Shown piece by piece: positions 1-59,420 of a stretch of DNA of 64,000 nt. Where the stretch lies: the NCBI GenBank assembly GCA_903928345.1, contig CAIYQO010000266.1:2029-66028 (forward strand). The letters run 5' to 3'. Position numbers and translations under genes: made by a program. Position 1 is the stretch's first letter; each line of letters opens with the position of its first letter. The notes under the pieces were generated by a model. The model saw only the letters and a list, made by a program, of their open reading frames with translations. It made no database searches and was not told the origin of the DNA. This DNA comes from an uncultured bacterium. Lineage in GTDB: Bacteria; Armatimonadota; Hebobacteria; CAIYQO01.

Positions 1-129
1 ATTTCGTCCCGTTACCATACCCCATCCATCCCTTTCATCCCCGTGAATTATCACCCACAATTAAGCTAGCCCTCGCAAACACAACCAAACAACTTAACTA
101 TTATTGCCCCCACAAATGACGTTTTTCCC

Positions 130-1266
130 TCACCGCCGCTTCCCCACCCGCGCCGGGGCGATGCGCACCGCCCCCTCCGGGCAGAGTTCGTGGCAGCAGA
201 AGCAGCGGAGGCAGGGCTTCAGGTTGATGGTGGGGACGGCGCCGCGGAGGTGGGTGATGGCGTGGGGCGGGCAGTGGCCGGCGCACTTGCCGCACTTGAT
301 GCAGCGGGCGGCGTCGATGACCGGGCGGGGGGCGAAGAGCCAGCTCGACAGGTCGGCGATCCACAGCGGCATGATGCCCGACCCCTTCAGCGTGGGCGCG
401 GGCACGAAGTCCGCCACGCGCACGTCCGCCGGGTCGGCGCCGTGCAGGGTAATCTCCCCCAGCGCCTTCGGCCCCAGGCCGCGCGCCGCCGCGGCGCCTA
501 CCGTGGGCACACCGAGCGGGTCGAGGCCGATGAGGTGCGTGCCCACGAAGTCCAGCGCGTAGACGCTGGGGCTGGCGAGGAGCAGCCCCACCTGGCGCGG
601 CGTGCCGTGCGACGGCCCGTTGCCCTCCATCGCCGTCACCGCGTCCATGATGGTCAGCGCGGGGGGCAGCGTCTCGGCGATGTCCAGCAGCAACTCGGCA
701 AAGTCGTCCAGCCGCTTGCCCGCGTGCAGGTGGTACTCCACCTTGCGCATCCCCGGCAGGTACCCGTAGAGCAGCTTCACCGCGCCGGTGTAGAACATGA
801 AGCCGTGGGTCTTCAGCTTGGGCAGCCCGATCACCACGTCGGCGTCGAAGGGCGCCTTCACCAGGGTGAGCTTCTTATACACCCGCGCCCGCGGGCAGTC
901 CACCTCGACGGTGTCCGCGTCGAAGAAGACCACCGCGCAACCTGTCTCGTCGATCACCTGCTGGATGCCCGTCGCCTTCAGCAGCGCCGGGTAGCCGCCG
1001 TTCATGTTGATCATGCCCGGCGAGTCGCCCACCACCGCCGTGGCGCCCAGCGCCTGCACCGCGCGCACCACCGCGCGCACCAGCGCCGGGTGGGTGGTCA
1101 CCGCCGCTTCGGGCGGTTTGGCCATCAGCAGGTTGAGCTTCAGCAGCACGCGCTGCCCGGGCTTAACGAAGGCGGCCAGCCCGCCGAGGGGGGCCAGCGC
1201 CTCCGCCAGCGCGGCGTCGACGGCGTCATAGGAGGGGCAGCGGGTGATGGTGACGGTGTTCGGCAT
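130..1266 (-). CDS. DUF362 domain protein with C-terminal 2x CxxCxxCxxxCP 4Fe-4S ferredoxin-type motifs
   Basis: 378-aa ORF. C-terminus has CIKCGKCAGHCP and CLRCFCCHELCP motifs. Lies 31 nt downstream of the ABC-F gene on the same strand. Confidence 0.7.
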   Translation of the reverse strand: MPNTVTITRCPSYDAVDAALAEALAPLGGLAAFVKPGQRVLLKLNLLMAKPPEAAVTTHPALVRAVVRAVQALGATAVVGDSPGMINMNGGYPALLKATGIQQVIDETGCAVVFFDADTVEVDCPRARVYKKLTLVKAPFDADVVIGLPKLKTHGFMFYTGAVKLLYGYLPGMRKVEYHLHAGKRLDDFAELLLDIAETLPPALTIMDAVTAMEGNGPSHGTPRQVGLLLASPSVYALDFVGTHLIGLDPLGVPTVGAAAARGLGPKALGEITLHGADPADVRVADFVPAPTLKGSGIMPLWIADLSSWLFAPRPVIDAARCIKCGKCAGHCPPHAITHLRGAVPTINLKPCLRCFCCHELCPEGAVRIAPARVGKRR

Positions 1267-1297
1267 GGGAAGAGTATACCCGTTTCCCGCTCCCCCG

Positions 1298-3103
1298 TCA
1301 GCCGCCCGCCTTCGCTTCCAGCTCCGCCCAGCGGGTGTAGAGGGTCTGCACGTGCTCCTGCGCGGCGTGGTGCTCGGTGCTCAAGGTGTGCAGGCGCTGA
1401 TGGTCGGCGAGCACGGCGGGGGTCTGCAGCAGCGCCGCAAGGCCGGCCAACGCGTCCTCCGCCGCCAGGATCGCCGCCTCCATCCCCTCCAGCTCGCGCT
1501 CCTCGCGCCAGGTCATCTTCTTGGCGGCGCGGGCCACGGTGGGGCGCGGGGCGGTCTTTACCGCCGGCTCCTTGCGCACTGCCGCCCGCGCCGCGGTGGC
1601 GCGCTCCCATTGGGACAGGTCGGCGTAGTAGGCGGGCACGGGGTCGTCGGATTCCAGCGCCAGCAGGCCGGTGCACAGGCGGTCGAGCATGAAGCGGTCG
1701 TGGGTCACCAGCAGCAGCGTGCCGGGGAAGTCGGCCAGGCTCTCCTCGAGCACCTGCAGCGAGGGGATGTCCAGGTCGTTCGTCGGCTCGTCGAGCACAA
1801 GCACGTCGGCGGGTTGGCGCATCAACTCGGCGATGTAGATGCGCGCCTGCTCGCCGCCGGAGAGTTCGCTCACCGGCAGCGGCAACTGCTCCGGGGTGAA
1901 GAGGAAGCGCTTGGCCCACGCAGTGACGTGGATATACGACCCGCGGTACGCCACCTGGTCGCCGGTGGGGGCGAGCGCCTCGCGCAGCGTGAGGTGCGGA
2001 TCGAGGGCGGGACGGTGCTGCGCGAAGTAGACCACCTTCAGGTCGTCCGCGCACCACACCGTGCCGTGGTCGGGGGGCAGCTCGCCGCCAAGTACGCGCA
2101 ACAGCGTGGTCTTCCCCGTGCCGTTGGCGCCAAGCAGGCCCAGGCGCATACCCGCCAGCAGTTCGATGTCGAGCCCGCGGAAGAGGCAGCGCCCACCGAG
2201 CGACTTCTCCAGCCCCGTGCCGATGACCAGCCGCTTGGTGCGGCGTCCCCCGGCGGTGAAGTCGATCTGCACGGTGCGCCCCTGCGTGTTGCGCTCCTTC
2301 GTCTCCGCCAGCGTGGCGATCATCGCTTCGGCATCCTCGATGCGCCCCTTCGCCTTGGTGGTGCGCGCCCGCGCGCCGCGCTGCAGCCACGCCACCTCGC
2401 GCCGCACGGTGCTCTCCAGCGCCTGCTGCTGGCTCTGCTGCCCCAGCACGAACTCCTCGCGCTTGAGCAGGAAGTCGCTGTAGCCGCCCTCCACGCTGAA
2501 GGCGCCGTCGGGGTAGACGCGGCTCAGCTCCAGCACGCGGGTGGCGGCGTGCTCCAGCAAATAGCGGTCGTGGCTGATGAAAACGCACGCGCACGACGCC
2601 GCCTGTAGCAGTGCCTCCAGCCAGAGGATGCCGGGCAGATCGAGGTGGTTCGTCGGCTCGTCGAGGAGGAGCAATTCGGGCTCCGTGACCAGCGCGCGCG
2701 CCAGTGCGAGGCGCTTCTTCCAGCCGCCGGAAAGGGTCGCGGCCAGGGCCGCGGGGTCGGGGAACTCCAGCTTGCCGCAGAGCATGTCCGCGCGCACGCG
2801 GCTGATGTGGGGGTCCAGCATGTGGTCCTCCGCCGCCAGCAGCACGTCGAGCACCGAGGCGCCGTCGGGGAAGGCATCCACCTGCGGCACGTACCCCACG
2901 CGCAGCCCGCGCCGCAGGGTGATCTCGCCGGCGTCCGGCGTCTCTTCCCCCGCCAACATGCGCAGCAGCGTGGACTTACCCGCCCCGTTCGGCCCGATCA
3001 CCCCCAGCCGCTCCCCTTCGCCCACGCCGAAGGACACCCCCGCAAAGAGGGTGCGCAGCCCAAACGCCTTACCGATCTTATCGCAGTTGAGTACAAGTGC
3101 CAT
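1298..3103 (-). CDS. ABC-F family ATPase (tandem ABC ATPase domains, no TMD; Uup/YheS-like)
   Basis: 601 aa. Two Walker A motifs (GPNGAGKST, GANGTGKTT), LSGG signature motifs, and a C-terminal charged or coiled tail. Confidence 0.85.
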   Translation of the reverse strand: MALVLNCDKIGKAFGLRTLFAGVSFGVGEGERLGVIGPNGAGKSTLLRMLAGEETPDAGEITLRRGLRVGYVPQVDAFPDGASVLDVLLAAEDHMLDPHISRVRADMLCGKLEFPDPAALAATLSGGWKKRLALARALVTEPELLLLDEPTNHLDLPGILWLEALLQAASCACVFISHDRYLLEHAATRVLELSRVYPDGAFSVEGGYSDFLLKREEFVLGQQSQQQALESTVRREVAWLQRGARARTTKAKGRIEDAEAMIATLAETKERNTQGRTVQIDFTAGGRRTKRLVIGTGLEKSLGGRCLFRGLDIELLAGMRLGLLGANGTGKTTLLRVLGGELPPDHGTVWCADDLKVVYFAQHRPALDPHLTLREALAPTGDQVAYRGSYIHVTAWAKRFLFTPEQLPLPVSELSGGEQARIYIAELMRQPADVLVLDEPTNDLDIPSLQVLEESLADFPGTLLLVTHDRFMLDRLCTGLLALESDDPVPAYYADLSQWERATAARAAVRKEPAVKTAPRPTVARAAKKMTWREERELEGMEAAILAAEDALAGLAALLQTPAVLADHQRLHTLSTEHHAAQEHVQTLYTRWAELEAKAGG

Positions 3104-3343
3104 AATGCAAGCGGCGTCCAGACACGCCGGAGGATATGATACAGGGATTTCGGGGTTCCGGCCACTGAGAGCGGTTGATGCGGGAGAATCCTCCCGAGCG
3201 GATGAGCCCCGTCAAGATCAATCGGCCCGAGAATCATCGTTACCATTTCCGTATTATTGCGGGATCAAGGAACAATGCAGGCTTCCCTGGTGTCCTACCA
3301 TACATTCCGGCATGTAGCCGATCCGATCTATGGAGGTTGACAC

Positions 3344-3802
3344 ATGGTACTCCTGACACGAAAACATCTCATCCTTGCGCTGCTTGGTGTGCTGGCGTTA
3401 GTCGTGACCGGCACGACGTTGTTCGGTGAAGAGCCGCCGGCACCGCCGGTCGATACCGCGGTCCGGTGGGCCAGTGCCGACGGCGCGATGGAGATCATCC
3501 TCACGCCGGTCGTCAACGCGAAGACCAAGACGAACTATCGCCTCATCGTCATCTCGGCGAAAGAGCTGCAGGTCACGTATCACACCAGCCTGAATAGCTC
3601 GACCAAGGTCGACAAGGTGCTCAAGCCTCTCGCCTCGACTTTACGCGATGTGAAGGTCTATGAATTCGGGCATGAGTTTTCGCGCACCACGATCTGGATG
3701 GCGCTGACATTCGCGCATAACGGGAAACCGGTGACGGAGCTGACCCGGACGTTCTATGACGGGATTGACCATACCGTGCCGAATGCGAACTTTCTGAAGT
3801 AG
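3344..3802 (+). CDS. hypothetical secreted protein (signal peptide)
   Basis: 152-aa ORF with an N-terminal hydrophobic signal-like segment (LILALLGVLALVVTG). Lower GC than the flanks. Confidence 0.5.
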   Translation: MVLLTRKHLILALLGVLALVVTGTTLFGEEPPAPPVDTAVRWASADGAMEIILTPVVNAKTKTNYRLIVISAKELQVTYHTSLNSSTKVDKVLKPLASTLRDVKVYEFGHEFSRTTIWMALTFAHNGKPVTELTRTFYDGIDHTVPNANFLK

Positions 3803-3900
3803 CGCTGGGAAACCGCTGCCGCCTGCCCGATGCGTGGCGACGGCTCCATGCCCAACCAGTCTGCTCGAGCAGCAGATGACCATACGAGAGGGAGAATGTT

Positions 3901-5142
3901 ATGACCAGACTCGCAGCATCTTTCGCCGCAACCAGGCACACGCGCACTCACCGCGGCCTATCCCGGCTTATGCAAAGTTTCGCCTTGCTGCTGCTCATTG
4001 CGACCGGAGACGCGCTTATCGTCACAAGAGCCGGCGCCGCGGCTCCCGCCACCGAGAAGGCGAATGCTGTGGTCGTCACCAAATGTCAGCAGGACCTGGC
4101 GCAACGGCTCAATATCCCGGTGAAGGATATCGCGGTCATCGATGCCGAAGCGAAGGTCTGGCCGGACGCCGCGCTGGGGATGCCGGAACCCGGAAAAGTG
4201 TACGCCCAGGTGCAGACACCCGGCTGGCGTATCGTGCTGGAAGCGCGGCAGATTCGCTATCTATATACCGCTAGTGACCACGGGTGCAAATTCGGTGGGC
4301 CGCTGTCCCTGTGGGACTACTCGATGCTCTACGTGCTGCCGGTGCCGCAAGAACCGAACCTCAATGGCGACCTGTATCAGTGCTCGTTGGTGGGCACGAA
4401 CCACCTCCGCCTCGTTTCCGGAGTCGATTCGTATTACCCACAGGCCAAAGGGGTGGTGCTCTTCACGCGGCGCACTTCACGTTCGGGGTTCGAGCTATTG
4501 TCGATAAAGGCCGGCGCGGGCAAAGAGGCGCAACGGCTCCATTCGGCATTCTCCATCGGTGCGGCGGCGCTCAATGAAGCGCAGGATACCTGGGCCGCCT
4601 TCGTGCGACCGGGCTTGGGCAACGGGTGGAAGGTCGTGGTCGCACGCATCGGGCAAGATGACGTCGTCACGCTCCCGTTGCCGGATGACGCACAGCAACC
4701 GCAACGTATCGTCTGGTCGGGTGAGCGGCTTATGATCCAGGTTGGCACCGCGAAGGGCACGGCCTGCTTTGCGACGACCCCGGCTAAGGCAGCCCCCGAG
4801 TGGCACGCGGTGGATCACGTCCAATTCCAGGAGGCACAGGGATACCGGCTGAACAAGAGCGAATGGTTGGAGATTACGCAAACCGGCACGGAGAAGAAAC
4901 CCTGCGTGGAAGTGTCGCGGGTCTGGTTTACCGGCGACCGCAATGACGTGGCGACGATCAATGGCTTGACATTACGCGGACACGAGTTGCTCAACGCTGG
5001 TTATGCCTTCATTTGGGGTGAACAGCATGGGCAGGCCGCCGCCTACACCGTGGATATCTCTTCCGGCGAGGTGACGCCCGGTTTCCATGGCGTGTGCCAG
5101 GATATCAAACCCTTCACCTACCCGCCCAGCACCACACCCTGA
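3901..5142 (+). CDS. hypothetical secreted protein
   Basis: 413-aa ORF with a hydrophobic N-terminus (FALLLLIATGDALIV). No recognisable motif. Lower GC. Confidence 0.5.
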   Translation: MTRLAASFAATRHTRTHRGLSRLMQSFALLLLIATGDALIVTRAGAAAPATEKANAVVVTKCQQDLAQRLNIPVKDIAVIDAEAKVWPDAALGMPEPGKVYAQVQTPGWRIVLEARQIRYLYTASDHGCKFGGPLSLWDYSMLYVLPVPQEPNLNGDLYQCSLVGTNHLRLVSGVDSYYPQAKGVVLFTRRTSRSGFELLSIKAGAGKEAQRLHSAFSIGAAALNEAQDTWAAFVRPGLGNGWKVVVARIGQDDVVTLPLPDDAQQPQRIVWSGERLMIQVGTAKGTACFATTPAKAAPEWHAVDHVQFQEAQGYRLNKSEWLEITQTGTEKKPCVEVSRVWFTGDRNDVATINGLTLRGHELLNAGYAFIWGEQHGQAAAYTVDISSGEVTPGFHGVCQDIKPFTYPPSTTP

Positions 5143-5198
5143 GCGCGGACGTTGACGGAGGCTGCGTGCACCGGCCTCCGTCAACGCGCGGTCGCAGA

Positions 5199-6374
5199 CT
5201 ATTTCCCGACAAATCCCCACTTGCCATTCAGCTTGACACCCGCCAAGCCGCCGTGGAAACCCAGCACTTCGTCGAAGGTGGGTGGGATCACTTCGCGCCC
5301 CGTCTTATCGATGAATCCCCATTTGCCGTCCAGTTGCACACCGGCCACACCTTCGCTAAATGAGAGTGCACTCGCGTAGCGCAGGGGGATCGCAAGCTGA
5401 CCGGTCGGATCGATGTAGCCCCATTGCTCGTTTAATTGTACACCAGCAAGACCTTCATGAAAGTTTGCGGCACGGGTATAGGTAAGCGGCACGACTTCAT
5501 GGCCGGTCTTGTCGATAAACCCCCATTTACCGTGCAGGCTCACGACCGCCATGCCTTCGGAGAAGGTACCGCCGGGAAACGTGGATTCGTAGCGGGGCGG
5601 CACGATCTCCTTGCCGGTGCGGTCGATGAAGCCCAAGCGGTTTTTGTTATTCTCCACGCCCGCGAGCCCTTCGGAAAAGGCCTCACACAAGTCATATTGG
5701 CAGGCGATGACTTCGCGCCCGGTGTTGTCGATATACCCCCACAGTTTATTGTGTTGCACGGCGGCCAACCCTTCATGGAAGGAGTCGGCGTCTTCGTACG
5801 TCAGTGGAATCACCTCGCGCCCGTTTTTATCGACGAATCCCCATTGTTTCTGCAGTTTCACGGCCGCCAGGTCACCGGCAAACGAGAAGACCAGGTCATA
5901 GCGTAGCGGAACGACCACATGTCCGGCCTTGTCGATGAACCCGCATTTTTCATCGCGCTTCACCATCGCCAGATCTTCAGCGAAGGGCCAGGCTTCATCA
6001 TACTGGAACGGAATAACCGTCTTCCCGGTCTTGTCGAGAAAGCCGAACCAATCGTCTTCGGTCGCCAGACAGGCCAGCGCTTCGGTCATGCCTTCGGTGG
6101 GAAAATACGTTTTATACTTACAGGGAATGACTTCGCGCCCCGTGGCATCCACATACCCCCAGAGCTTGTTGTGCTCCACGAGGGCCATGCCATCGGCAAA
6201 GCTATACACGTCATCATAGTTGCACGGCACAATGAGGGTGCCCGGCCGTGTTGGCGCCGTTTGGGCCTGCGCCTGCAAAGCCGGGAGAAAGAAAACACAA
6301 GCCAGTAGGAGCACAGCGCGCTGCATAGACGACATAACCACCATCCCTCCACTCAACCTGCACCATCCTATCAC
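5199..6374 (-). CDS. WG-repeat (KWG/WG_beta_rep-like) secreted protein
   Basis: 391 aa. Signal peptide, then about 10 tandem ~35-aa units of the form KWGFIDKTGKEVIP...F.EGLA.V. Confidence 0.75.
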   Translation of the reverse strand: MIGWCRLSGGMVVMSSMQRAVLLLACVFFLPALQAQAQTAPTRPGTLIVPCNYDDVYSFADGMALVEHNKLWGYVDATGREVIPCKYKTYFPTEGMTEALACLATEDDWFGFLDKTGKTVIPFQYDEAWPFAEDLAMVKRDEKCGFIDKAGHVVVPLRYDLVFSFAGDLAAVKLQKQWGFVDKNGREVIPLTYEDADSFHEGLAAVQHNKLWGYIDNTGREVIACQYDLCEAFSEGLAGVENNKNRLGFIDRTGKEIVPPRYESTFPGGTFSEGMAVVSLHGKWGFIDKTGHEVVPLTYTRAANFHEGLAGVQLNEQWGYIDPTGQLAIPLRYASALSFSEGVAGVQLDGKWGFIDKTGREVIPPTFDEVLGFHGGLAGVKLNGKWGFVGK

Positions 6375-6578
6375 GATCAGCCGTGGGTTGGAAGCCGGCG
6401 GTCATGCGCGGTCCGAGCAATGGCACATCGACTGTGACGGATCGGGTGTCACGCGCGAGCGAAATCAGATCAGCCGCGAAGGGGATACACGCTGAATATT
6501 TTCACGTTCTCAGTACCAACTTTATTTGTAATCAAATGCTACACGAGATAGACTATTTCCCTATTCGTCTCAATTTTG

Positions 6579-8111
6579 TTACCTCCCCGCCCCTCTATCC
6601 ATCGTCCGAAACTGCACCGCCTCCGCGACGTGGGGGACGGCTAGCGACTCGTCGCCGGCGAGGTCGGCGATGGTGCGGGCGAGTTTCAGGATTCTATCGT
6701 ACGCGCGGGCGGAGAGGTGGAGCTGGTCGATGGCGGTGCGCAGCAGGCGCTGCACATCGTCGTCGAGGGGGCAGAACTGGCGGATGTCCTTGGGGCGCAT
6801 CTGCGCGTTGTTGGCGATGGGCGTGCCGGCGAAGCGGCGCAGTTGCACCTCGCGGGCGCGCGTGACGCGGGCGCGCACATCAACGGACGCCTCGCCCAGG
6901 CGCGTGGAGAGCAGCTCGTCGTGGCGCAGGCGCGGCACCTCGATGTGGATGTCCAGCCGGTCGAGCAGCGGCCCGCTGATGCGCGCCTGATATTTGGCCA
7001 CCTGCGCGGCGGAGCAGGTGCACCCGCGCACGCCGTCGCCGCGATAGCCGCACGGGCAGGGGTTCATGCTGGCGATGAGCTGCAGCCGCGCGGGATACGA
7101 CAGGTTGGCGGCGGCGCGGGAGATGGTGACCAGCCCGTCTTCCATCGGCTGGCGCAGCACCTCCAGCGTGCGGCGGTCGAATTCGGGGAATTCGTCGAGG
7201 AAGAGCACCCCCTGGTGCGCCAGGCTGATCTCACCCGGGCGCGGAATGCTGCCCCCGCCCACCAGCCCGGCGCTGCTGATGGTGTGGTGCGGCGACCGGA
7301 AGGGGCGGTGGCGGATGAGCCCGCAGCCGGCGGGGAGCATGCCGGCGATGGAGTAGATCTTCGTGATGTCCAGCGCTTCGGTCAGCGTGAGGGGCGGCAG
7401 GATGGTGGGCAGGCGCCGCGCGATGAGCGTTTTGCCCGACCCCGGCGGGCCGATCATAATCATATTGTGCCCGCCCGCCGCCGCCACTTCCAGCGCGCGC
7501 TTCACATGCTCCTGCCCCTTGACCTCGGAGAGGTCCATCTCAAAGGCCAGGCTCTCGGGCGCCCATTCCACTTCGCCGGTCAACGGGGCGCGTGTGCCCG
7601 GGTCGCCGAGTACGGTCGCGGCTTCCGCCAGCGTGGCGACCGGGTAGACCGCCAGCCCCGCCACCACCGCGGCCTCTGGCGCGTTCTCCGTGGGCACGAT
7701 GATCGCCGTTTTGCCGCGCGCCTTGGCGTCCAGCGCGATGGGCAACACGCCGGAGACGGGGCGCACCGAGCCGTCGAGGGATAGCTCACCAATTGCCACG
7801 AACTGCGCGGCGTCGCCGCCCTCCACCTGCCCGCACGCCATGAGGATGGCCAGCGCGATGGGCAGGTCGAAGCCCGGGCCCTCCTTGCGGATATCCGCCG
7901 GGGCCAGGTTGATGACCATGTGGATATTGGAGGGGAATTTGAACTGCGAGTTGCGGATCGCCGTGCGCACGCGCTCGCCGGCCTCCCGCACCGCGGTGTC
8001 GGGCAAGCCGACGATAGTGAACTTGGCGTCTCCCGGTGCAGCATCCACCTCGACCGAGACGAGATAGGCGTCGATGCCCAGAATCGCCGCTGAATCCAAT
8101 TGCGCAAGCAT
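6579..8111 (-). CDS. YifB/ComM family Mg-chelatase-like AAA+ ATPase
   Basis: 510 aa. N-terminal MLAQLDSAAILGIDAYLVSVEVD (Lon-like/ChlI N-domain), Walker A GPPGSGKT, and a C-terminal Mg-chelatase ChlI-like segment. Confidence 0.85.
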   Translation of the reverse strand: MLAQLDSAAILGIDAYLVSVEVDAAPGDAKFTIVGLPDTAVREAGERVRTAIRNSQFKFPSNIHMVINLAPADIRKEGPGFDLPIALAILMACGQVEGGDAAQFVAIGELSLDGSVRPVSGVLPIALDAKARGKTAIIVPTENAPEAAVVAGLAVYPVATLAEAATVLGDPGTRAPLTGEVEWAPESLAFEMDLSEVKGQEHVKRALEVAAAGGHNMIMIGPPGSGKTLIARRLPTILPPLTLTEALDITKIYSIAGMLPAGCGLIRHRPFRSPHHTISSAGLVGGGSIPRPGEISLAHQGVLFLDEFPEFDRRTLEVLRQPMEDGLVTISRAAANLSYPARLQLIASMNPCPCGYRGDGVRGCTCSAAQVAKYQARISGPLLDRLDIHIEVPRLRHDELLSTRLGEASVDVRARVTRAREVQLRRFAGTPIANNAQMRPKDIRQFCPLDDDVQRLLRTAIDQLHLSARAYDRILKLARTIADLAGDESLAVPHVAEAVQFRTMDRGAGR

Positions 8112-8267
8112 GCCTTATCAATTCAAGGGTTCGCTGGGAATTCCTCCCGTGGCCGAAAAAATGTTTGCGTCACGTTAATTTTTCCGCCGGGGGGATTAAG
8201 GGAATTGTTAGTTGGGCAAGCTGTAAGCAGCAATGCGGGACGGCAGTCGTGCGTTGCGCTTCCTCGC

Positions 8268-8296
8268 TTGACGATTGTGTTTTGTCCTCGTAAGCT
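8268..8296 (+). promoter_or_regulatory. sigma70-like promoter TTGACG-17-TAAGCT upstream of the response regulator
   Basis: -35 at 8268-8273 and -10 at 8291-8296 with a 17-nt spacer. G-rich RBS GGGGGGA lies before ATG 8319. Confidence 0.4.
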
Positions 8297-8318
8297 ATGG
8301 ACAGGGGGGAATATTGCG

Positions 8319-9023
8319 ATGTCGTCGGAAATTCTCATCATTGAAGATGACGAGCAGGTACTCGGCCTGGTGGCGCGTTATCTGGAGCGCGAAGGATTCA
8401 GCACGGTGACGGCGCGCAACGGGCGCGTGGGCTTGGAGACGGCGATCGCGCGCCGGCCGATGCTGGTGCTGCTCGACGTGAACCTGCCCGACCTGGATGG
8501 CTGGTCCATCCTGCGCCGGCTGCGCGACGACCCGGCGCTGGCGCCGGCGGTGATTATGCTCACCGCGCGCAGCGACGAGCCCGACCGCCTGCTGGGGTTA
8601 GACCTTGGTGCGGACGATTACATCGTAAAACCTTTCAGTCCCCGCGAAGTGGTGGCGCGTGTGAAAGCCGTGCTGCGCCGCGTGCATCCCGCCAACGCGC
8701 CGGCCACCGACCAGGACATGGCCTTCCCCGGCCTGCGCATCGACCTGGCGGGCCGCACCGTGTGGCACAACAACGCCGCGGTGAACCTGACCCCGAAAGA
8801 ATTCGACCTGCTGGTGCTGCTGGCCAGCCACCCGAACCGCGTGCTCACCCGCACCGCCCTCTACGACGCCGTGTGGGGCAGCGACGGCCAGGGCGACGAC
8901 CACACCCTCGACGTGCATGTGAACCGCCTACGCCGCAAGCTCACCAACCCCGACGGCACCCAATTCCTCGTCACCGCCCGCGGTGTGGGCTTCAAGTTCG
9001 AGGTACCGCATGGCCGTGCGTAG
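8319..9023 (+). CDS. OmpR-family response regulator
   Basis: MSSEILIIEDDE..VLLDVNLPDLDGW receiver domain and a winged-helix C-terminus. The listed ORF 8100..9023 is extended; the internal ATG at 8319 follows a G-rich RBS. Confidence 0.85.
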   Translation: MSSEILIIEDDEQVLGLVARYLEREGFSTVTARNGRVGLETAIARRPMLVLLDVNLPDLDGWSILRRLRDDPALAPAVIMLTARSDEPDRLLGLDLGADDYIVKPFSPREVVARVKAVLRRVHPANAPATDQDMAFPGLRIDLAGRTVWHNNAAVNLTPKEFDLLVLLASHPNRVLTRTALYDAVWGSDGQGDDHTLDVHVNRLRRKLTNPDGTQFLVTARGVGFKFEVPHGRA

Positions 9024-10455
9024 GCCCTCCCTGCTGCTGCTCGTTGCGCGGAATTACCTGTGGGCGATGCTGGCGACACTGCTGGTGTTGCTGCTTATCG
9101 TGCTGGCGATCACCGACGGCGTGGTGTTGTACGCGCGGCGGAACGCGCTCTCCGCGCAGCTCTCCGCCGTCGAGTCGGTGGACAACGCCATGCTCATGCT
9201 CTATGAGATCAACGGCGGCGAAGGGCACGAACGCGCGGGGAACCTGCTGCTGGACGCCGAGGGGCACTGGGTGAGCGGGCCGGATTCCGACGGCCAACCG
9301 GCGGAGGCCGCGTCCACCCCCCCCACGATTCACCGCTGGCCGAAGGCGGCGGAAGTCAACCGGCGCGGCGGTCTGCACGGCATGGAGCGGCTGCCGTGGA
9401 CGCGGGACGTGGTGATCTGGGCCGCGCGCCCGATGACCAGCCCCGACGGCGAGCCGCAAATCCTCATCGCCTGGGAGCAGGTCGGCGCCATTCGCCACGC
9501 CACCATGCCGGTCTACCTCAGCGTCATCGTCACCACCCTGCTCGCCTTCGGCATTTGCGCCCTCATCGGCATGCGCACCGTGCGCGGTATCACGCGCGTG
9601 CTGGACGGCATCGCGGAATCCAGCTCGCGCATGGCCGCCGGCGACTATCACATTCGCCTCCCCGCGCAGCCCGCCGAGGAACTCGCGCGCGTCACCATGG
9701 CCATCACCAGCCTGGCGCGCAATCTGGAGCAGACCACAACGGCGCTGCGCGCGGAGCACGTGCGCCTGTCGCAACTGGAGGGCCTGCAGCGGCAATTCGT
9801 CGCCGACGCCTCCCACGAGCTGCGCGCCCCGCTCACCGCCATGCGCGTCACGCTGGAGGCCTGGCAGGACGGCATCCTGCGGACCGAGGAGCAACCGCAG
9901 GCGCTGGAGCAGTTGGCCGACGGCGTGACGCGGCAGAGCAAGCTGGTGACGCGGCTGCTCGACCTGTCGCGCATCGAGTCGGGCCGCGAGTTGGTGATTA
10001 CCGAGCCGGTGGATCTGCGCGCGGTGGCGCTGGGCGTGGCGCGCGACGTGGCCGGCACGCCGGGCGCGCCGGTCACCGTGGAGGTGCCCGCCCTGCCGCT
10101 GGCCCTCGGCGACCACGACGCCATCACGCGTATCCTGACGAACTTCGTGGAGAATGCCCGCCGCTTCACGCCGCCGGATGGCACGGTGCGCATCGTGGCG
10201 ACCTCCGCGGGGGACACGGTGCGGTTGGCGGTCAGCGACACTGGCTGCGGCATCGACCCCGACTTCCTCCCCCGTGTCTGGGACCGCTTCGCCCGCGACC
10301 CGCAGGCCCGCGCCCAGGGAAAATCCGGCAGCGGGCTGGGGTTGGCCATCGTGCAGGCACTGGCGCAGGCCATGAACGGCGAAGTCGGTGCCGACAGCAC
10401 CCTCGGCGTCGGCACCACTATGTGGGTCCGCCTGCCGGTAGCGGTGGAGGAGTAG
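9010..10455 (+). CDS. sensor histidine kinase (TM, HAMP, HisKA, HATPase_c)
   Basis: H-box SHELRAPL, N/G boxes. The start ATG at 9010 overlaps the RR stop (ATGGCCGTGCGTAG). Confidence 0.8.
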   Translation: MAVRRPSLLLLVARNYLWAMLATLLVLLLIVLAITDGVVLYARRNALSAQLSAVESVDNAMLMLYEINGGEGHERAGNLLLDAEGHWVSGPDSDGQPAEAASTPPTIHRWPKAAEVNRRGGLHGMERLPWTRDVVIWAARPMTSPDGEPQILIAWEQVGAIRHATMPVYLSVIVTTLLAFGICALIGMRTVRGITRVLDGIAESSSRMAAGDYHIRLPAQPAEELARVTMAITSLARNLEQTTTALRAEHVRLSQLEGLQRQFVADASHELRAPLTAMRVTLEAWQDGILRTEEQPQALEQLADGVTRQSKLVTRLLDLSRIESGRELVITEPVDLRAVALGVARDVAGTPGAPVTVEVPALPLALGDHDAITRILTNFVENARRFTPPDGTVRIVATSAGDTVRLAVSDTGCGIDPDFLPRVWDRFARDPQARAQGKSGSGLGLAIVQALAQAMNGEVGADSTLGVGTTMWVRLPVAVEE

Positions 10456-11287: not shown

Positions 11288-11404
11288 CGCTTGCTCCCCT
11301 TACCCGTCGTTTATGGTATACTTCCAGCATAACATACCCATACTGTGGCGTCTCACACAGAGGTGTACAGCAAAGCAGGTAATTGCTTTGTCTGTAATAC
11401 TTTG

Positions 11405-11436
11405 TTGACGTTCTGTTGAGGTTTTCGTGTTACAAT
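11405..11436 (+). promoter_or_regulatory. candidate promoter with extended -10 (TGtTACAAT) and TTGACG -35-like
   Basis: TTGACG at 11405-11410, TG at 11428-29, TACAAT at 11431-11436. AGGAGG RBS at 11464-69 before ATG 11478. Confidence 0.35.
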
Positions 11437-11477
11437 AATCCAAGAGGCAATTCGCCTATCCAGAGGAGGAGGTTTCC

Positions 11478-11903
11478 ATGAAGAAAGTACTCGTTAGTCT
11501 CGTTTGCGTGGCCGTCCTGGCCAGTGCACTTGCCGCGTTCGCGCAGGCGCCGGCCAAGACTGCCCCGAAGGCTAAGGCTACGACAACGGCGAAGGCGCCC
11601 GTCAAGACCACCGCCAAGACCGCCGCCAAAACCACAGCCACGAAACCGGCGACCACGAAAAAGGTTGCGGCTCCGAAGAAGGCTGCCCCCGTTGCCAAGT
11701 CCGCTCCCGTGAAGAAGACCGCCAGCAAAAAGATGGTCAATAAGCACAAAAAGCACGGCAAAAAAGGCAAAAAGGGCGCCAAAAAGATGATGAAGCCCGC
11801 GACGAAGACCACCAAGCCGGCCGTGAAGACCGCTCCGAAGGCTGCCAAGCCGGCCCCGAAGGCCGCCCCGAAGGCCGTCAAGCCGGTCGCGAAGAAGAAA
11901 TAA
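11478..11903 (+). CDS. secreted lysine/alanine-rich low-complexity protein (histone H1-like composition)
   Basis: 141 aa. Signal peptide, then AKAP/KTTAK/PKKAA repeats. Strong RBS. Confidence 0.65.
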   Translation: MKKVLVSLVCVAVLASALAAFAQAPAKTAPKAKATTTAKAPVKTTAKTAAKTTATKPATTKKVAAPKKAAPVAKSAPVKKTASKKMVNKHKKHGKKGKKGAKKMMKPATKTTKPAVKTAPKAAKPAPKAAPKAVKPVAKKK

Positions 11904-49713: not shown

Positions 49714-49737
49714 AAGGTTACCGAACGAGGTGCGGCC

Positions 49738-50988
49738 ATGGACCGGCGCGTTATGCTCTTACTCCTGCTCCTCGCCCTCCCGGCGGCCCTGCCCGCCGCC
49801 TCCCCCGCACGCCTGCGCGCGATGCTGGCGAGTTCCGACCCCCACGTGCGCCTGCAAGCCGTGACGGTGCTGACGCACCAACGCGTCCCCCATACGCGGT
49901 GGCGCTTGGCGAAATTACTGGGTGACGAAGACCCGGCCATCGAACGCGCGGCGTTGCATGCCTATGTATTTCAGGGGGGATCGCGGATTGCGGCGCTGAT
50001 GCAATTGATGGTCGATCATCCCTGCACGGATTACATTAAAGCCGCGCGACTACGCAGCGACGCGAAATGGGCACTGGCGCACCTGCGAAACCCGAAACTC
50101 ATCCCCGAGATGCTCGATCGCATTGGCCTTTGCTATCTTTCGAGCGGACCAGAGATGTATTTCAATGATGATGGCAGTAAGGATCTTCGCACCAGTATTG
50201 TCTCGATGGGCGCAACGGCAATCCCGGCATTATGCCGCGCGATGAAAGAGCCGGATCGCTTTAAGCGCTTTATCGGTGTGGATATTTACACGACGCTCGC
50301 CGGCCACGACCTTGGCGCCTTGCTGGCTATTTACAACGATACCAGCTTCGCTTTTGACGACGTTCGCGTGGCGTTGCTGACCGCCATCGATGCGACGCAC
50401 GACGCGCGAGGGGTCGATGTCGTCCTCATCGCGCTCGACGACCCGTCGGATGACGTGAAGACATTTGCCGCCCGTCTGGCCGCCCCCTGGTATGCCGGAC
50501 CTAACAAGGCTCGTTTACGCCGCTTTGCCGTAGAACACTCCGCGCTGGCCATCCCGATTCTGCGGCAAATGGCGGATGCCCATGATCCGGATGCGACCCG
50601 GTTGTTGGTTTCAGTGTTATGTCAGGATAATGAGTCGAGTGTAACTAATGCCGCGTATACCCTCCATGATATTTACGACAATCATGAAGAAAGCTTCCTG
50701 CAAATGGCTATCGATGCTGGTGCCCCCCAAATGCACCTGTTAAAGATATATCTAAATTTCTGGCACGGTCCGAATCCCGTTGTCCCGAGCCCGTTACCCG
50801 ATGATGACCTCCTCCCCATGTTCCGACAGCATCAAGTAGCTGCGCCGCCACGACCCGCGCCAGCCCCCGATGCTTTCGAGCAACAATACCACTGGCTGGC
50901 GCGCACCGACCGGCGGATGGATAGGGAGTATCACGCAGACACGCTGAACGAACGATTCATCCCCTATTTTCGTCCAATGAACTTCTGA
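49738..50988 (+). CDS. HEAT-repeat (PBS-lyase-like) secreted protein
   Basis: Start MDRRVMLLLLLLALPAALPAASP. Repeated DP.VR..A...L HEAT-like units. About 53% GC in the gene body. Confidence 0.55.
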   Translation: MDRRVMLLLLLLALPAALPAASPARLRAMLASSDPHVRLQAVTVLTHQRVPHTRWRLAKLLGDEDPAIERAALHAYVFQGGSRIAALMQLMVDHPCTDYIKAARLRSDAKWALAHLRNPKLIPEMLDRIGLCYLSSGPEMYFNDDGSKDLRTSIVSMGATAIPALCRAMKEPDRFKRFIGVDIYTTLAGHDLGALLAIYNDTSFAFDDVRVALLTAIDATHDARGVDVVLIALDDPSDDVKTFAARLAAPWYAGPNKARLRRFAVEHSALAIPILRQMADAHDPDATRLLVSVLCQDNESSVTNAAYTLHDIYDNHEESFLQMAIDAGAPQMHLLKIYLNFWHGPNPVVPSPLPDDDLLPMFRQHQVAAPPRPAPAPDAFEQQYHWLARTDRRMDREYHADTLNERFIPYFRPMNF

Positions 50989-51049: not shown

Positions 51050-52252
51050 TTACATCGTCGATGCCGAGCCTTTGATACTGGCCTGGGCGAGGCGGCGGAT
51101 CATCTGGCGCATTTCGGTGGGGTTGCCGGCGTAGGCGATGGCGCTATTTTCGCTGATGGAGCCGTCGCGGAAGTGGTTGAGCAGCGACATATTCATCGAC
51201 TGCATGCCCCAGTAGGCGCCCTCGGTGATGGCTTGCGGCACGTTGCCGGCGCGGCCCTCTTCGATGAGTTTGGCGATGGTGGGGGTGTTGATCATCACCT
51301 CGATGCCGCAGCGGCGCCCCTTGCCGTCCACCGTAGGCACCAACTTTTGCGAGCAGACGCCCAGCAGGGTGGCGGACAGGCGCAGACAGATCTGCGGCTT
51401 CTCGTGCGGCGGGAACATGTTGACGATGCGTTCGATGGTTTCCGCGGCGCTGTTGGTGTGCAGGGTGGAGTAGACCAGGTGGCCGGTTTCCGCCGCGGTC
51501 ATCGCCACGGCCATCGTTTCCACGTCGCGCATCTCACCGACGAGGATGACGTCCGGCGCTTGGCGGAGCACGGCGCGCAGGGCGTTGCCGAAGTTGAGGG
51601 TGTCCAGCCCGATCTCACGCTGGCTGATGATGGACAGTTTGTCGCGGTGGGCGAACTCGATCGGGTCCTCGATGGTGATGATGTTGGTGCGGCGGTTGGT
51701 GTTGATCAGGTCGATCATGGCCGCCAGGGTGGTGGACTTGCCGGAGCCCGTCGGGCCGGTGACGATGCACATGCCCTTCTTGTGCGTGACCAGCGAGGCC
51801 AGCACCTTGGGCAGCCCGAGTTCTTCCAGCGTGGGGATTTCCAACGGAATGAGGCGCATCACGCTCGCCATCCCGCCGCGCTGCTTGTAGATGTTGACGC
51901 GGAAGCGGATGACATCGGGGATTTCCAACGCGGTGTCGATCTCCGGGTTCTTTTTGAAGCGTTCGCGCTGCTCCTCGTTCATCACCGAGTAGAAGAAGAT
52001 CTCTTCCATCTGCTTCATGGTCAGCGGCTCGATGTCCAACTGCGCGATGCGGCCCGCGAGGCGGAGGCACGGCGGCGAACCGACCTTCCAAAAGATGTCC
52101 GACGCGCGCTCTTCCACCGCCTGCAGACAAATGGCGTCGAAAAACGCGCGGGGATTCGTGGCCAACAGGTCCTGCAGCTCGCCTTCGGAGAGCTTGGGAC
52201 TTACGACTTCGCGAATCTCGGTGAAGAGTTCGTTGAGACTACCTTCGATCAT
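51050..52252 (-). CDS. pilT: type IV pilus retraction ATPase PilT/PilU family
   Basis: Walker A GPTGSGKST, Asp box, His box (TLHTNSAAETIERI), AIRNLIRE-like motif. Confidence 0.85.
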   Translation of the reverse strand: MIEGSLNELFTEIREVVSPKLSEGELQDLLATNPRAFFDAICLQAVEERASDIFWKVGSPPCLRLAGRIAQLDIEPLTMKQMEEIFFYSVMNEEQRERFKKNPEIDTALEIPDVIRFRVNIYKQRGGMASVMRLIPLEIPTLEELGLPKVLASLVTHKKGMCIVTGPTGSGKSTTLAAMIDLINTNRRTNIITIEDPIEFAHRDKLSIISQREIGLDTLNFGNALRAVLRQAPDVILVGEMRDVETMAVAMTAAETGHLVYSTLHTNSAAETIERIVNMFPPHEKPQICLRLSATLLGVCSQKLVPTVDGKGRRCGIEVMINTPTIAKLIEEGRAGNVPQAITEGAYWGMQSMNMSLLNHFRDGSISENSAIAYAGNPTEMRQMIRRLAQASIKGSASTM

Positions 52253-53101: not shown

Positions 53102-53177
<76 letters not shown>

Positions 53178-53189
53178 ACGCACAGGATT

Positions 53190-53218
53190 ATGATACCTCA
53201 ACGCCGGCGGGGTGTCAA
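53190..53218 (-). promoter_or_regulatory. promoter TTGACA-17-TATCAT for tRNA-Ala
   Basis: Reverse complement of 53190-53218. Confidence 0.45.
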
Positions 53219-53243
53219 TAGCCGTTGTGAGGCACGTCGCGCC

Positions 53244-53272
53244 TTGACCCCACCCAGGCGCGCGGGTACAAT
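53244..53272 (+). promoter_or_regulatory. promoter TTGACC-17-TACAAT for tRNA-Arg
   Basis: -35 at 53244-49 and -10 at 53267-72. The tRNA starts at 53282. Confidence 0.5.
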
Positions 53273-53281
53273 ACGACAGGC

Positions 53282-53358
<77 letters not shown>

Positions 53359-53366
53359 ATCCGTAA

Positions 53367-53406
53367 CAATGCAAAATGAACAATGGAGAATGGAAAATGC
53401 AGAATG
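53367..53406. repeat. A-rich AATG-periodic repeat (AATGCAAAATGAACAATGGAGAATGGAAAATGCAGAATGG)
   Basis: Shares the 11-mer AATGGAAAATG with the 43565 element. Confidence 0.4.
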
Positions 53407-53443
53407 GTTTGACCGCTGACACGCTTTCGGAAAGGTAGTTCCC

Positions 53444-58000: not shown

Positions 58001-58087
58001 GGCAAAGCACTCCCGGGTGGAATTTCTACGTAGAAAGACACGTTAACGGGGCAAACGTTGCGGGGATCACGACGCCTCGCCGCGCAA

Positions 58088-58255
58088 TTGTCTGAACCGG
58101 GATTTGGGGGGATGAAAGGATTTCCGTGATGGGAGAACGGAATAAGGCTTGCATGGCTGCGAATCACGGGAGGAAATGAGAGGGAATATGGGATTTCTCA
58201 ATTCGTTCCCCCATCATGGAAATCCCTGAATCCCCCCAAATCCCGGTTCAGACAA
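58088..58255. repeat. 168-bp MITE-like element with about 52-nt TIRs (TTGTCTGAACCGGGATTTGGGGGGAT... / ...ATCCCCCCAAATCCCGGTTCAGACAA)
   Basis: Arms at 58088-58140 and 58204-58255 with about 5 mismatches. Lies in the upstream region of gene 54257..58000. Confidence 0.6.
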
Positions 58256-58364
58256 TTCCGATTCCAAGCGCGCCGCGCGGAGCTTGTAGCGGATCGACGG
58301 TTCGTCGGAAGCCAGCATTTGTTTGAGGATCGGTTCCATCGCGCGACCATGTTTCTCGGGAACG

Positions 58365-58946: not shown

Positions 58947-59018
58947 GACGGTTGCCTCCCTGGTAGCGACCATATTCCGTATACATGACGGGCATACCTG
59001 CCGCCTCCCCTGTCGTGC

Positions 59019-59051
59019 CCGTAATCGTGCTCGTGCTCGTGCTCGTAATCG
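59019..59051. repeat. hexamer-unit element GTAATCGT(GCTCGT)3AATCGA, the same unit set as 10467-10496
   Basis: Direct sequence identity of the units. Located about 75 nt upstream of the start of the zinc-ribbon gene. Confidence 0.4.
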
Positions 59052-59091
59052 AAAATCCATACAACAACGCGAATCCTCCTCATCCCCAATA

Positions 59092-59190
59092 CTGTTCAAA
59101 TCTGAAAAGTGGCACGGGCGTCCCGCCCGTGGGACCTTCGTCGTGGCCTGGCCGTCTCGGCCATGCCACTTTTCAGATTTGAACGGTATT
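59092..59190. repeat. nested palindromes: 20-nt perfect IR TTCAAATCTGAAAAGTGGCA / TGCCACTTTTCAGATTTGAA, plus inner CACGGGCG-TCC-CGCCCGTG
   Basis: Read directly from the sequence. Confidence 0.45.
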
Positions 59191-59221
59191 GCCGTGATCC
59201 GCAACTGAGCACGCTCAACCA

Positions 59222-59284: not shown

Positions 59285-59420
59285 TGCCCGGAAGCCCGGG
59301 GGTCTAGGCCCGCGGGGGGAGAATCGTGTATCATAAGGGGATATCATTGGGATCTTCCCCCGTTTCCCCCCTTCCCGCGAGGGAAGGGGTCGGGGGGTTA
59401 GGTCCTACGAAGGAATGTGC

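What the first reader, a model, noticed from the sequence alone, without database searches (positions are those of the whole stretch)
3104..6578. Lower-GC island encoding three secreted proteins, ending in an AT-rich (about 35% GC) 100-bp tract
Between the core genes ABC-F and yifB, the segment 3104-6578 is visibly lower in GC (about 55-59%) than the roughly 70% flanks. It encodes two unknown secreted proteins and a WG/KWG-repeat protein. 6480-6578 is strikingly AT-rich. The compositional break suggests horizontal acquisition of a secreted-protein module.
Basis: seen in the sequence. Interest (0 to 1): 0.6.

Follow-up and report, generated by a model that had tools for sequence, protein, structure and literature searches.

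The report
Low-GC islet of three exported proteins
A 3.5-kb stretch of clearly lower GC content in an Armatimonadota genome carries three phylum-restricted exported proteins of unknown function and was probably picked up from a lower-GC relative, which makes it an ordinary small genomic islet rather than a new kind of system.

Summary
Segment 3104-6578 has 58.6% GC against 66.4% for the rest of the window and 69.5-72% in the flanking genes. It is the lowest 3.5-kb stretch in the 64 kb. Maximum-likelihood boundaries (3061-6585) fall close to the ABC-F start codon and the YifB stop codon. Third-codon GC is 0.68-0.78 against about 0.88 elsewhere.

The islet holds three genes with N-terminal export signals:
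- a 152-aa beta-sandwich protein from a rare family with no Pfam match;
- a 413-aa protein from a family of more than 200 members, named only from Armatimonadota, whose predicted fold is TolB-like (N-terminal domain plus six-bladed propeller);
- a 378-aa protein with ten WG repeats.

Horizontal acquisition is partly supported. In 31 other loci the 413-aa family matches its host's GC; only here is it clearly lower. The best matches of all three genes lie in one MAG of about 60-62% GC, and their GC and GC3 are nearly the same there.

There is no integrase, tRNA or flanking repeat. No close relative genome is available for an empty-site test. The three genes do not travel together as a trio elsewhere; only the 413-aa/WG convergent pair recurs, in three other genomes.

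The 36% GC tract is the yifB-WG intergenic spacer. Verdict: ordinary, low interest.

The parts
1298..3103 (-). Left flank: ABC-F ATPase (Uup/EttA-like), native high-GC core gene (GC 70.7%, GC3 0.93), transcribed away from the islet
   Evidence: Pfam ABC_tran x2, ABC_tran_CTD and ABC_tran_Xtn; NCBIfam ABC-F models; composition
3104..3343 (.). 240-bp divergent intergenic region (55% GC) between ABC-F and the 152-aa gene. It is the presumed promoter region for both, and the left compositional boundary lies here (maximum-likelihood estimate 3061).
   Evidence: No sigma-70 consensus match was found. A GGAGG Shine-Dalgarno sequence lies 7 nt before the ATG at 3344.
3344..3802 (+). p152: a 152-aa exported small beta-sandwich protein from a rare uncharacterised family
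   Evidence: No Pfam, NCBIfam or PADLOC hit. 19 homologues in 5.8e9 clusters and 46 representatives in 1.84e9. AlphaFold pLDDT 80: an N-terminal helix (residues 6-22) followed by 8 strands. Only weak fold hits, to FetP/P19 (E 4e-3, TM 0.37). GC3 0.78.
3901..5142 (+). p413: a 413-aa exported or membrane-anchored protein with TolB-like architecture (N-terminal alpha/beta domain plus six-bladed beta-propeller). It belongs to a multi-copy family of more than 200 members; every named member is from Armatimonadota, and the family has no Pfam model.
   Evidence: Homologues; alignment A1 with invariant and near-invariant motifs such as RRTSRSG and NLNGDLYQCSL; AlphaFold pLDDT 88.6, pTM 0.81; Foldseek top 18 PDB hits are all TolB, aligned over the full length (E 1.6e-8, TM 0.43-0.49); no Pfam or PDB sequence hit; GC3 0.74
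5139..5197 (.). Inverted repeat (24-nt arms, 79% complementary, 11-nt loop; core GACGTTGACGGAGGC / GCCTCCGTCAACG) in the 56-bp gap between the convergent p413 and WG genes. It is a likely bidirectional transcription terminator.
   Evidence: repeat I2. The terminator function is inferred.
5199..6335 (-). WG-repeat protein: 378 aa from the ATG at 6335 (the ORF is open back to a GTG at 6374). It has a Sec-type signal peptide (...LQAQA/QTAP) followed by ten 34-aa WG_beta_rep repeats.
   Evidence: Pfam PF14903, E 2e-121, 10 stretches. 102-nt DNA periodicity. The start is supported by homologue N-termini and a GGAGGG sequence 9 nt upstream. Full-length orthologues of 63-69% identity lie convergent to p413 homologues in L081, L084/L094 and L086/L087. 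GC3 0.68.
6336..6578 (.). yifB-WG intergenic spacer. It contains a candidate extended -10 element (GTGATAGGAT, about 6355-6375) and, further upstream, the 36%-GC tract 6480-6578, which begins immediately after the yifB stop codon. The right compositional boundary lies here (maximum-likelihood estimate 6585).
   Evidence: No Rfam family. No consensus promoter or terminator match.
6579..8111 (-). Right flank: YifB-family Mg-chelatase-like AAA ATPase, native high-GC core gene (GC 69.5%, GC3 0.90), on the same strand as the WG gene and upstream of it
   Evidence: Pfam Mg_chelatase, ChlI and Mg_chelatase_C; TIGR00368, 610 bits; composition

Best explanation
Segment 3104-6578 is a small genomic islet with no mobility genes, in an uncultured Armatimonadota genome of about 66-70% GC. 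It sits between two native housekeeping genes, ABC-F and yifB. It most likely entered by lateral transfer and recombination from another Armatimonadota lineage of roughly 60% GC, and has not yet drifted up to the host's composition.

It holds two transcription units that converge on a shared hairpin:
- p152 followed by p413 on the + strand. Both have Shine-Dalgarno sites and lie 98 nt apart.
- The WG-repeat gene on the - strand, read from its own promoter region in the AT-rich spacer below yifB.

All three products carry N-terminal export signals and none has a catalytic motif. I infer that they are non-enzymatic binding or scaffold proteins of the periplasm or cell envelope. p413 is a TolB-architecture propeller held near the membrane by its N-terminal helix. 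The WG protein is a soluble 10-repeat binding module that recurs next to p413 orthologues and may be its partner. p152 is a small Ig-like beta-sandwich that, within Armatimonadota, accompanies TolB-type propellers.

Shown here: the composition break, the gene content, the predicted folds, the family distributions, the recurrence of the p413/WG pair, and the absence of mobility features. Inferred: the transfer event, its direction, export of the proteins, the partnerships and the envelope role.
For: - The composition break sits at gene boundaries and extends to silent sites.
- p413-family genes match or slightly exceed their host's GC in 31 other loci (mean +0.016, minimum -0.032) and reach GC3 0.85-0.91 in high-GC hosts. 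The window copy is at -0.057.
- The best homologues of all three genes come from one MAG whose fetched loci are about 60-62% GC, and their GC/GC3 there is almost identical to the island genes: p413 60.1/0.75 against 61.7/0.74; WG 55.4/0.72 against 56.8/0.68; p152 59.0/0.78 against 58.0/0.78.
- Context is not conserved. No island gene lies beside yifB in 80 other species, and p413 homologues sit in many different neighbourhoods.
- Two contigs from different samples (L084, L085) are 99.95% identical up to the hairpin after a p413 homologue and then diverge completely, with a WG gene in one and none in the other. This points to recombination at this junction.
- Folds and families.
- The p413/WG convergent pair recurs in L081, L084/L094 and L086/L087 at 51-69% identity, across hosts of 43-61% GC.
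- p152 homologues lie directly upstream of a PD40-type propeller in L090-L093.
Against: - No integrase, transposase, tRNA or direct repeat marks the borders. There are no plasmid or phage relatives.
- The GC-normalised tetranucleotide signature of the islet is not an outlier, so any donor must have been compositionally close in everything but GC. Alternatively, the genes are native.
- Lineage-specific accessory genes are generally lower in GC than core genes (established knowledge). Two other single-gene low-GC patches occur in the same window.
- In L081 the WG orthologue is also below its neighbours.
- If GCA_054642535.1 is simply the closest sampled relative, 68-74% identity could reflect vertical descent. 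Core-gene identity to that MAG could not be measured.
- The p413/WG pairing appears in only 3 of about 25 independent p413 contexts with enough flank. p152 is next to p413 nowhere else.
- No experimental or interaction evidence exists for any of the three proteins.
Confidence: 0.55

Rival explanations
1. Native, vertically inherited accessory genes. The three genes have long been in this lineage. Their lower GC reflects weak selection on codon usage, low expression, or less GC-biased gene conversion acting on fast-evolving, lineage-specific envelope genes, not foreign origin.
For: All named relatives of p413 and the closest relatives of p152 are from Armatimonadota, the phylum of the host. The GC-normalised tetranucleotide signature is not an outlier. 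There are no mobility features. Other low-GC single genes exist in the window: a HEAT-repeat protein with GC3 0.66 and a zinc-ribbon protein with GC3 0.58. The WG orthologue in L081 is also lower in GC than its neighbours.
Against: p413-family genes track host GC in 31 other loci and reach GC3 of about 0.9 in other high-GC hosts, so the family can reach the host's composition. The window copy is the most negative outlier. Three adjacent genes share the deficit, and the break is sharp at gene boundaries. Gene position is not conserved anywhere.
Confidence: 0.33
2. Assembly or binning artefact. The contig is chimeric, and the 3.5-kb segment comes from a co-occurring, lower-GC Armatimonadota population.
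For: The source is a metagenome-assembled contig of 67,330 bp. The segment's composition resembles that of another Armatimonadota MAG. In a relative, contigs L084 and L085 switch partners exactly after the p413 homologue's hairpin, which could reflect assembly ambiguity at a repeat.
Against: It would need two chimeric joins, each falling close to a gene boundary and leaving intact ORFs, Shine-Dalgarno sites and intergenic spacers on both sides. No repeat at the borders could have misled an assembler.
Confidence: 0.05
3. Remnant of a mobile element or a defence or toxin cassette. The islet is the cargo of a degraded integrative element or a defence island.
For: WG repeats are fused to TIR, caspase-like and kinase domains in many other proteins. 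A DDE transposase lies 1 kb from a p152 homologue in L092, and another lies near the pair in L086.
Against: No PADLOC hit for any of the three proteins. No integrase, transposase, tRNA or repeats here. No phage or plasmid homologues. All three proteins carry export signals and lack effector domains.
Confidence: 0.04

Closest known systems
TolB (periplasmic component of the Tol-Pal system)
   Same: p413 has the same two-domain architecture and size: an N-terminal alpha/beta domain followed by a six-bladed beta-propeller, preceded by an export signal. The top 18 Foldseek PDB hits are all TolB chains aligned over about 383-413 columns (E 1.6e-8 to 2.5e-7, TM 0.43-0.49).
   Different: Sequence identity is about 10%. 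There is no TolB_N or PD40 Pfam hit and no PDB sequence hit. The gene is not in a tolQRA-tolB-pal cluster. The family is multi-copy per genome, with tandem triplets such as L120. All named members are from Armatimonadota. The modest TM scores may reflect a different relative orientation of the two domains.
WG_beta_rep (Pfam PF14903) repeat proteins
   Same: The 378-aa protein is a clear member, with ten repeats at E 2e-121.
   Different: It is a stand-alone protein of signal peptide plus repeats. Many relatives fuse the repeats to kinase, TIR, caspase-like, SLH or zinc-ribbon domains. The family has no solved structure and no known function. The literature search found only a modelling survey and a passing mention.
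Classical genomic islands (integrase-bearing, tRNA-linked, flanked by direct repeats)
   Same: A compositionally deviant segment of accessory genes inserted between core genes, with patchy distribution.
   Different: It is only 3.5 kb with three genes. It has no integrase, no tRNA target and no flanking repeats. It is better described as a genomic islet, probably gained by homologous or illegitimate recombination.
FetP / P19 / FtrA periplasmic cupredoxin-like beta-sandwich proteins
   Same: p152 is a periplasmic-type beta-sandwich of similar size (about 150 aa). These are its best PDB fold hits.
   Different: The hits are weak (E 4e-3 or worse, TM 0.37). There is no sequence similarity. The P19-type metal-binding residue set, as I recall it, is not obviously present among the p152 invariant residues (alignment). 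The resemblance is probably a generic Ig-like fold.

Membership tests
TolB | Two-domain fold: N-terminal alpha/beta domain plus C-terminal six-bladed beta-propeller | tested here: met
   The AlphaFold model (pLDDT 88.6) has a helix and four strands at residues 56-139, then about 24 strands at 141-405. Full-length Foldseek alignments to TolB chains give E 1.6e-8 and TM 0.43-0.49.
TolB | Sequence signature (Pfam TolB_N PF04052, PD40 PF07676 repeats) | tested here: not met
   No Pfam hit at E<=0.01 and none to these families at E<=1. The family profile A1 finds no TolB among PDB sequences at E<=10.
TolB | Encoded in a tol-pal gene cluster (tolQ-tolR-tolA-tolB-pal) | tested here: not met
   The neighbours here are p152, a WG-repeat protein, ABC-F and YifB. 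Neighbours of homologues are diverse, and none listed is a Tol or Pal protein.
TolB | Binding to Pal, TolA or peptidoglycan-associated partners | not testable with these tools
   Needs interaction assays or complex modelling.
WG_beta_rep (PF14903) | Repeated roughly 35-aa WG motif scoring above the Pfam gathering threshold | tested here: met
   396 bits against a cut-off of 25.6, with 10 repeats. The orthologues in L081, L084 and L086 score alike.
Horizontally acquired genomic island | Base composition and codon usage deviating from the host genome | tested here: met
   GC 58.6% against 66.4%. GC3 0.68-0.78 against 0.88. It is the lowest window of the 64 kb, with a log-likelihood gain of 46.8. 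However, the GC-normalised tetranucleotide signature is not deviant.
Horizontally acquired genomic island | Mobility genes (integrase, transposase) or insertion at a tRNA with flanking direct repeats | tested here: not met
   No such ORFs in 3104-6578. The only tRNAs are at 53.1-53.4 kb. No flanking repeats.
Horizontally acquired genomic island | Absent from the same site in closely related genomes | not testable with these tools
   The flanking core proteins ABC-F and YifB, like p152 and p413, are singleton clusters at 90% identity. Synteny of the flanks themselves is not conserved in those loci.
Horizontally acquired genomic island | Gene phylogeny that conflicts with the species phylogeny | not tested
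   No shared core genes were available from the genomes holding the closest homologues.
Known anti-phage defence systems (PADLOC) | Match to a defence-protein model | tested here: not met
   No hits for any of the three proteins.

The most novel reading that the evidence does not exclude
The p413 family may be an Armatimonadota-specific paralogous expansion of TolB-architecture periplasmic proteins. Together with a dedicated 10-repeat WG partner (the recurring convergent pair) and, in some lineages, a p152-type beta-sandwich protein, it could form a previously undescribed, laterally exchangeable cell-envelope module. That would give the functionless WG_beta_rep repeat its first defined partner and a cellular location.
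Probability: 0.2. Interest if true: 0.45.

Novelty: new member of a known kind. Interest (0 to 1): 0.22.

Why it matters
As a genomic feature it is routine. Small low-GC islets of lineage-specific genes between core genes are common, and this one has no unusual mechanism.

Its modest value is descriptive:
- It points to a family of more than 200 members with no Pfam model, named only from Armatimonadota, which has a confident TolB-like predicted fold.
- It shows that a stand-alone WG-repeat protein recurs next to that family in four genomes spanning 43-70% GC.

These are usable leads for envelope biology in a poorly studied phylum and for the uncharacterised WG repeat. They do not bear on any long-standing open question.

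Tried and rejected
1. Empty-site and synteny test. A YifB-based scan of 185,579 species genomes returned only distant relatives (58% identity or less), with no conserved ABC-F/yifB adjacency and no island genes. Exact look-ups of YifB and p413 found no contig. The flanking core proteins are singletons at 90% identity. The decisive comparison could not be made.
2. Flanking att-like repeats, tRNA genes and integrases: none.
3. An RNA element in the AT-rich tract or elsewhere in 2900-6800: no Rfam match at E<=1. The consensus scan found no promoter-like site and only two terminator-like sites, both inside coding sequence and fewer than expected by chance.
4. The idea that the 401/402-aa neighbour of p152 homologues is a diverged p413: rejected at sequence level (BLASTP E>0.1, hhalign probability 0.3%). 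It does carry a threshold-level PD40 hit, so it is another TolB-type propeller.
5. The idea that small ORFs upstream of distant p413 relatives (L130-L136) are p152 homologues: rejected. By inspection they look like SHOCT-type membrane proteins.
6. The idea that distant p152 relatives are also propeller-linked: rejected. They lie in clusters of small proteins with HSP20 and radical-SAM genes.
7. Paralogues of the island genes elsewhere in the window: none.
8. Plasmid, phage and defence links: none.
9. A baseline of core-gene identity to the genomes carrying the homologues: no shared core genes in the fetched loci.
11. The WG homology search used a query missing its first residue and was swamped by longer multi-repeat proteins. 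It missed the true orthologues, which tblastn on the fetched loci later found.
Full report
**Observation**

The compositional break is real and sharp. Segment 3104-6578 has 58.6% GC. The rest of the window has 66.4%, and the adjacent genes have 69.5-71.7%. It is the lowest of all 3475-bp windows in the 64 kb (mean 0.658, sd 0.024).

A two-state likelihood segmentation of the first 12 kb puts the boundaries at 3061 and 6585, with a log-likelihood gain of 46.8. That is close to the ABC-F start codon (3103) and the YifB stop codon (6579).

The deficit extends to silent sites. GC3 is 0.78, 0.74 and 0.68 for the three genes. The flanking genes are at 0.86-0.97, and 27 other genes of the window average 0.88 (sd 0.064).

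The raw tetranucleotide distance to the rest of the window is the largest of any window (0.32; mean 0.18, sd 0.03). After normalising for base composition the islet is unremarkable (correlation 0.72; mean 0.80, sd 0.045). The anomaly is therefore essentially one of GC.

Tract 6480-6578 is 36.4% GC, the lowest 100 bp in the window. Several other intergenic spacers fall to 39-41%.

**Anatomy**

The left flank is an ABC-F ATPase (1298-3103, - strand). The right flank is a YifB-family AAA ATPase (6579-8111, - strand). Between them lie the following features:

| Coordinates | Strand | Feature |
|---|---|---|
| 3104-3343 | . | 240-bp divergent spacer |
| 3344-3802 | + | p152 |
| 3901-5142 | + | p413 |
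| 5139-5197 |. | inverted repeat in the 56-bp gap between the convergent genes (I2); probably a bidirectional terminator |
| 5199-6335 | - | WG-repeat gene |
| 6336-6578 | . | spacer that ends in the AT-rich tract |

Each gene has a GGAGG-type ribosome-binding site.

The WG start at 6335 is supported by the N-termini and lengths of orthologues. An extended -10-like motif, GTGnTAnnAT, lies upstream of the start codon here (about 25 nt upstream) and in two orthologous loci. The AT-rich tract lies further upstream, directly after the yifB stop codon. It matches no Rfam family and no consensus promoter or terminator. I read it as an ordinary intergenic spacer.

**The proteins**

- **p413.** It has no Pfam, NCBIfam, PADLOC or PDB sequence match. 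It belongs to a well-conserved family with 208 hits; every hit that carries a name is from Armatimonadota MAGs. There are several paralogues per genome and even tandem triplets. An AlphaFold model built on 51 sequences is confident (pLDDT 88.6, pTM 0.81). It shows an N-terminal hydrophobic helix, a small alpha/beta domain, and about 24 strands forming a six-bladed propeller. The top 18 Foldseek PDB hits are all TolB chains aligned over the full length (E 1.6e-8, TM 0.43-0.49, about 10% identity). It therefore has TolB architecture. It is not a TolB-family member by sequence, gene context or copy number.
- **p152.** It belongs to a rare family: 19 hits by word-indexed search and 46 representatives among 1.84 billion. 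The predicted structure is a signal helix plus an eight-stranded beta-sandwich (pLDDT 80). It has only weak, probably generic, similarity to FetP/P19-type periplasmic proteins.
- **WG-repeat protein.** It has a classical signal peptide and ten WG_beta_rep repeats. That family has no solved structure and no known function.

**Distribution and context**

The best homologues of all three proteins are in one Armatimonadota MAG, GCA_054642535.1: p152 at 74%, p413 at 68% and WG at 69% identity.

A full-length WG orthologue (63-69% identity) lies convergent to a p413 homologue in three other genomes:
- adjacent in L084/L094 and in L086/L087;
- about 2.7 kb away, with three called genes between, in L081.

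The fetched loci of these hosts range from 43% to 61% GC. Most other p413 contexts with adequate flank (about 25) lack a WG orthologue, and their neighbourhoods differ widely.

p152 is next to p413 nowhere else. Its Armatimonadota homologues sit directly upstream of an unrelated 401-aa protein with a threshold-level PD40 hit, which is another TolB-type propeller. One homologue stands alone. Its distant relatives lie in HSP20/radical-SAM clusters.

The trio is therefore not a conserved module. The p413/WG pair is a recurring, though not obligatory, association. A link between p152 and a propeller protein is suggested, but only within Armatimonadota.

**Origin**

The most informative test was composition across the family. 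In 31 non-redundant loci, p413-family genes match or slightly exceed the GC of their flanks (mean +0.016, sd 0.031, minimum -0.032). They reach GC3 0.85-0.91 in high-GC hosts. The window copy is at -0.057, the most negative value seen. The family is therefore not intrinsically low in GC, and this copy is out of equilibrium with its host.

GC and GC3 of the three island genes are almost identical to those of their homologues in the MAG whose fetched loci are about 60-62% GC. Together with the sharp, gene-boundary break and the non-conserved position, this favours fairly recent acquisition from a lower-GC member of the same phylum.

Several points weigh against a firm conclusion:
- There is no integrase, tRNA, repeat, plasmid link or phage link.
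- The GC-normalised signature is not deviant.
- Accessory genes are commonly lower in GC than core genes. Two other single-gene low-GC patches occur in the window.
- No close relative genome exists for an empty-site test.
- No core-gene baseline of identity could be obtained.

I rate lateral acquisition at about 0.55, native accessory genes at about 0.33, an assembly chimera at about 0.05, and a mobile or defence remnant at about 0.04.

**Mechanism**

This section is inferred. There are two convergent transcription units that share a hairpin terminator. All three products carry export signals, and none has a recognisable catalytic motif. The likeliest role is non-enzymatic binding or scaffolding in the periplasm or cell envelope. 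In this reading:
- p413 is a TolB-like propeller tethered by, or cleaved from, its N-terminal helix.
- The WG protein is a possible soluble partner.
- p152 is a small accessory beta-sandwich.

Nothing here tests these roles.

**Verdict**

The horizontal-transfer reading is plausible and partly supported, but 'module' overstates the linkage, and the AT-rich tract is an ordinary spacer. This is a new member of a known kind of feature, a small genomic islet of lineage-specific exported proteins. Interest is low, with a modest descriptive lead: a TolB-like family named only from Armatimonadota and its recurrent WG-repeat neighbour.

Noticed in passing
window 11478-11903 (+), with upstream 11400-11477: Gene for a 141-aa secreted, extremely Lys/Ala/Pro/Thr-rich low-complexity protein (AKxA/PAKTA-type repeats, histone-H1-like composition). 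It has 12- and 33-nt tandem repeats and an AT skew up to 0.65. A near-consensus promoter (TTGACG ... TGTTACAAT) and a GGAGGAGG ribosome-binding site precede it. It has no Pfam hit.
   Followed up: partly
window 49735-50988 (+): A second low-GC patch (GC 0.585, GC3 0.66, against about 0.88 for the window). It encodes a signal-peptide-bearing HEAT-repeat protein and lies next to a PilT/T2SSE-type ATPase (51050-52252). It may be another accessory or acquired gene.
   Followed up: partly
window 58000-59300; ORF 58365-59222 (-): A third low-GC patch and the lowest 1-kb block of the window (GC 0.54, GC3 0.58). It encodes a zinc-ribbon (Zn_ribbon_15) membrane protein.
   Followed up: partly
L084 vs L085 (positions 1-9285, then divergent): Two contigs from different samples are 99.95% identical over 9285 nt, through a p413 homologue and its downstream hairpin (rich in CTCTGTGT repeats). 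They are completely different afterwards: a WG-repeat orthologue in one, and unrelated genes (164 aa, NUDIX, LamG) in the other. This is either strain-level recombination exactly at the p413/WG junction or an assembly switch at a repeat.
   Followed up: partly
L120 2090-6373: Three tandem p413-family paralogues (35-38% identity to the window protein) in one metagenomic contig. Several MAGs carry 2-3 copies, some adjacent (e.g. VGL77_06275 and VGL77_06280). The family is expanding by duplication.
   Followed up: no
L130, L132-L136 (upstream of the p413-like gene, e.g. L132 6538-6915): The most distant p413 relatives (32-36% identity) are consistently preceded by a 125-160-aa two-TM membrane protein. 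Its C-terminal motif (LKKDGLVTxEEY) looks SHOCT-like by inspection. A larger ORF of about 500 aa is also conserved nearby. This is a different conserved neighbourhood from the one in the window.
   Followed up: partly
L153 576-998 and L154 5001-5426: Distant p152-family members (42% identity), possibly from Acidobacteriota (one related hit, P0137, is named Pyrinomonadaceae). They lie in runs of small unannotated genes together with an HSP20 small heat-shock protein, a radical-SAM enzyme and, in L153, DUF5335. This hints at a stress-related context for that branch of the family.
   Followed up: no
L092 188-999 and L086 15148-15618: DDE transposase genes lie within 1-6 kb of a p152 homologue (L092) and of the p413/WG pair (L086) in other genomes. 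No transposase is present near the islet in the window.
   Followed up: no
window 6355-6375; L081 and L084 upstream of the WG orthologues: A shared extended -10-like motif, GTGnTAnnAT (GTGATAGGAT / GTGGTACGAT / GTGGTACAAT), lies upstream of the WG-gene start codon in three genomes of very different GC (about 25 nt upstream in the window). It is similar to the TGTTACAAT motif before the Lys-rich gene at 11430.
   Followed up: partly
window 53102-53358: A divergent pair of tRNA genes (tRNA-Ala GGC on the - strand, tRNA-Arg CCT on the + strand), followed by short 14/21-nt tandem repeats at 53365-53407.
   Followed up: no
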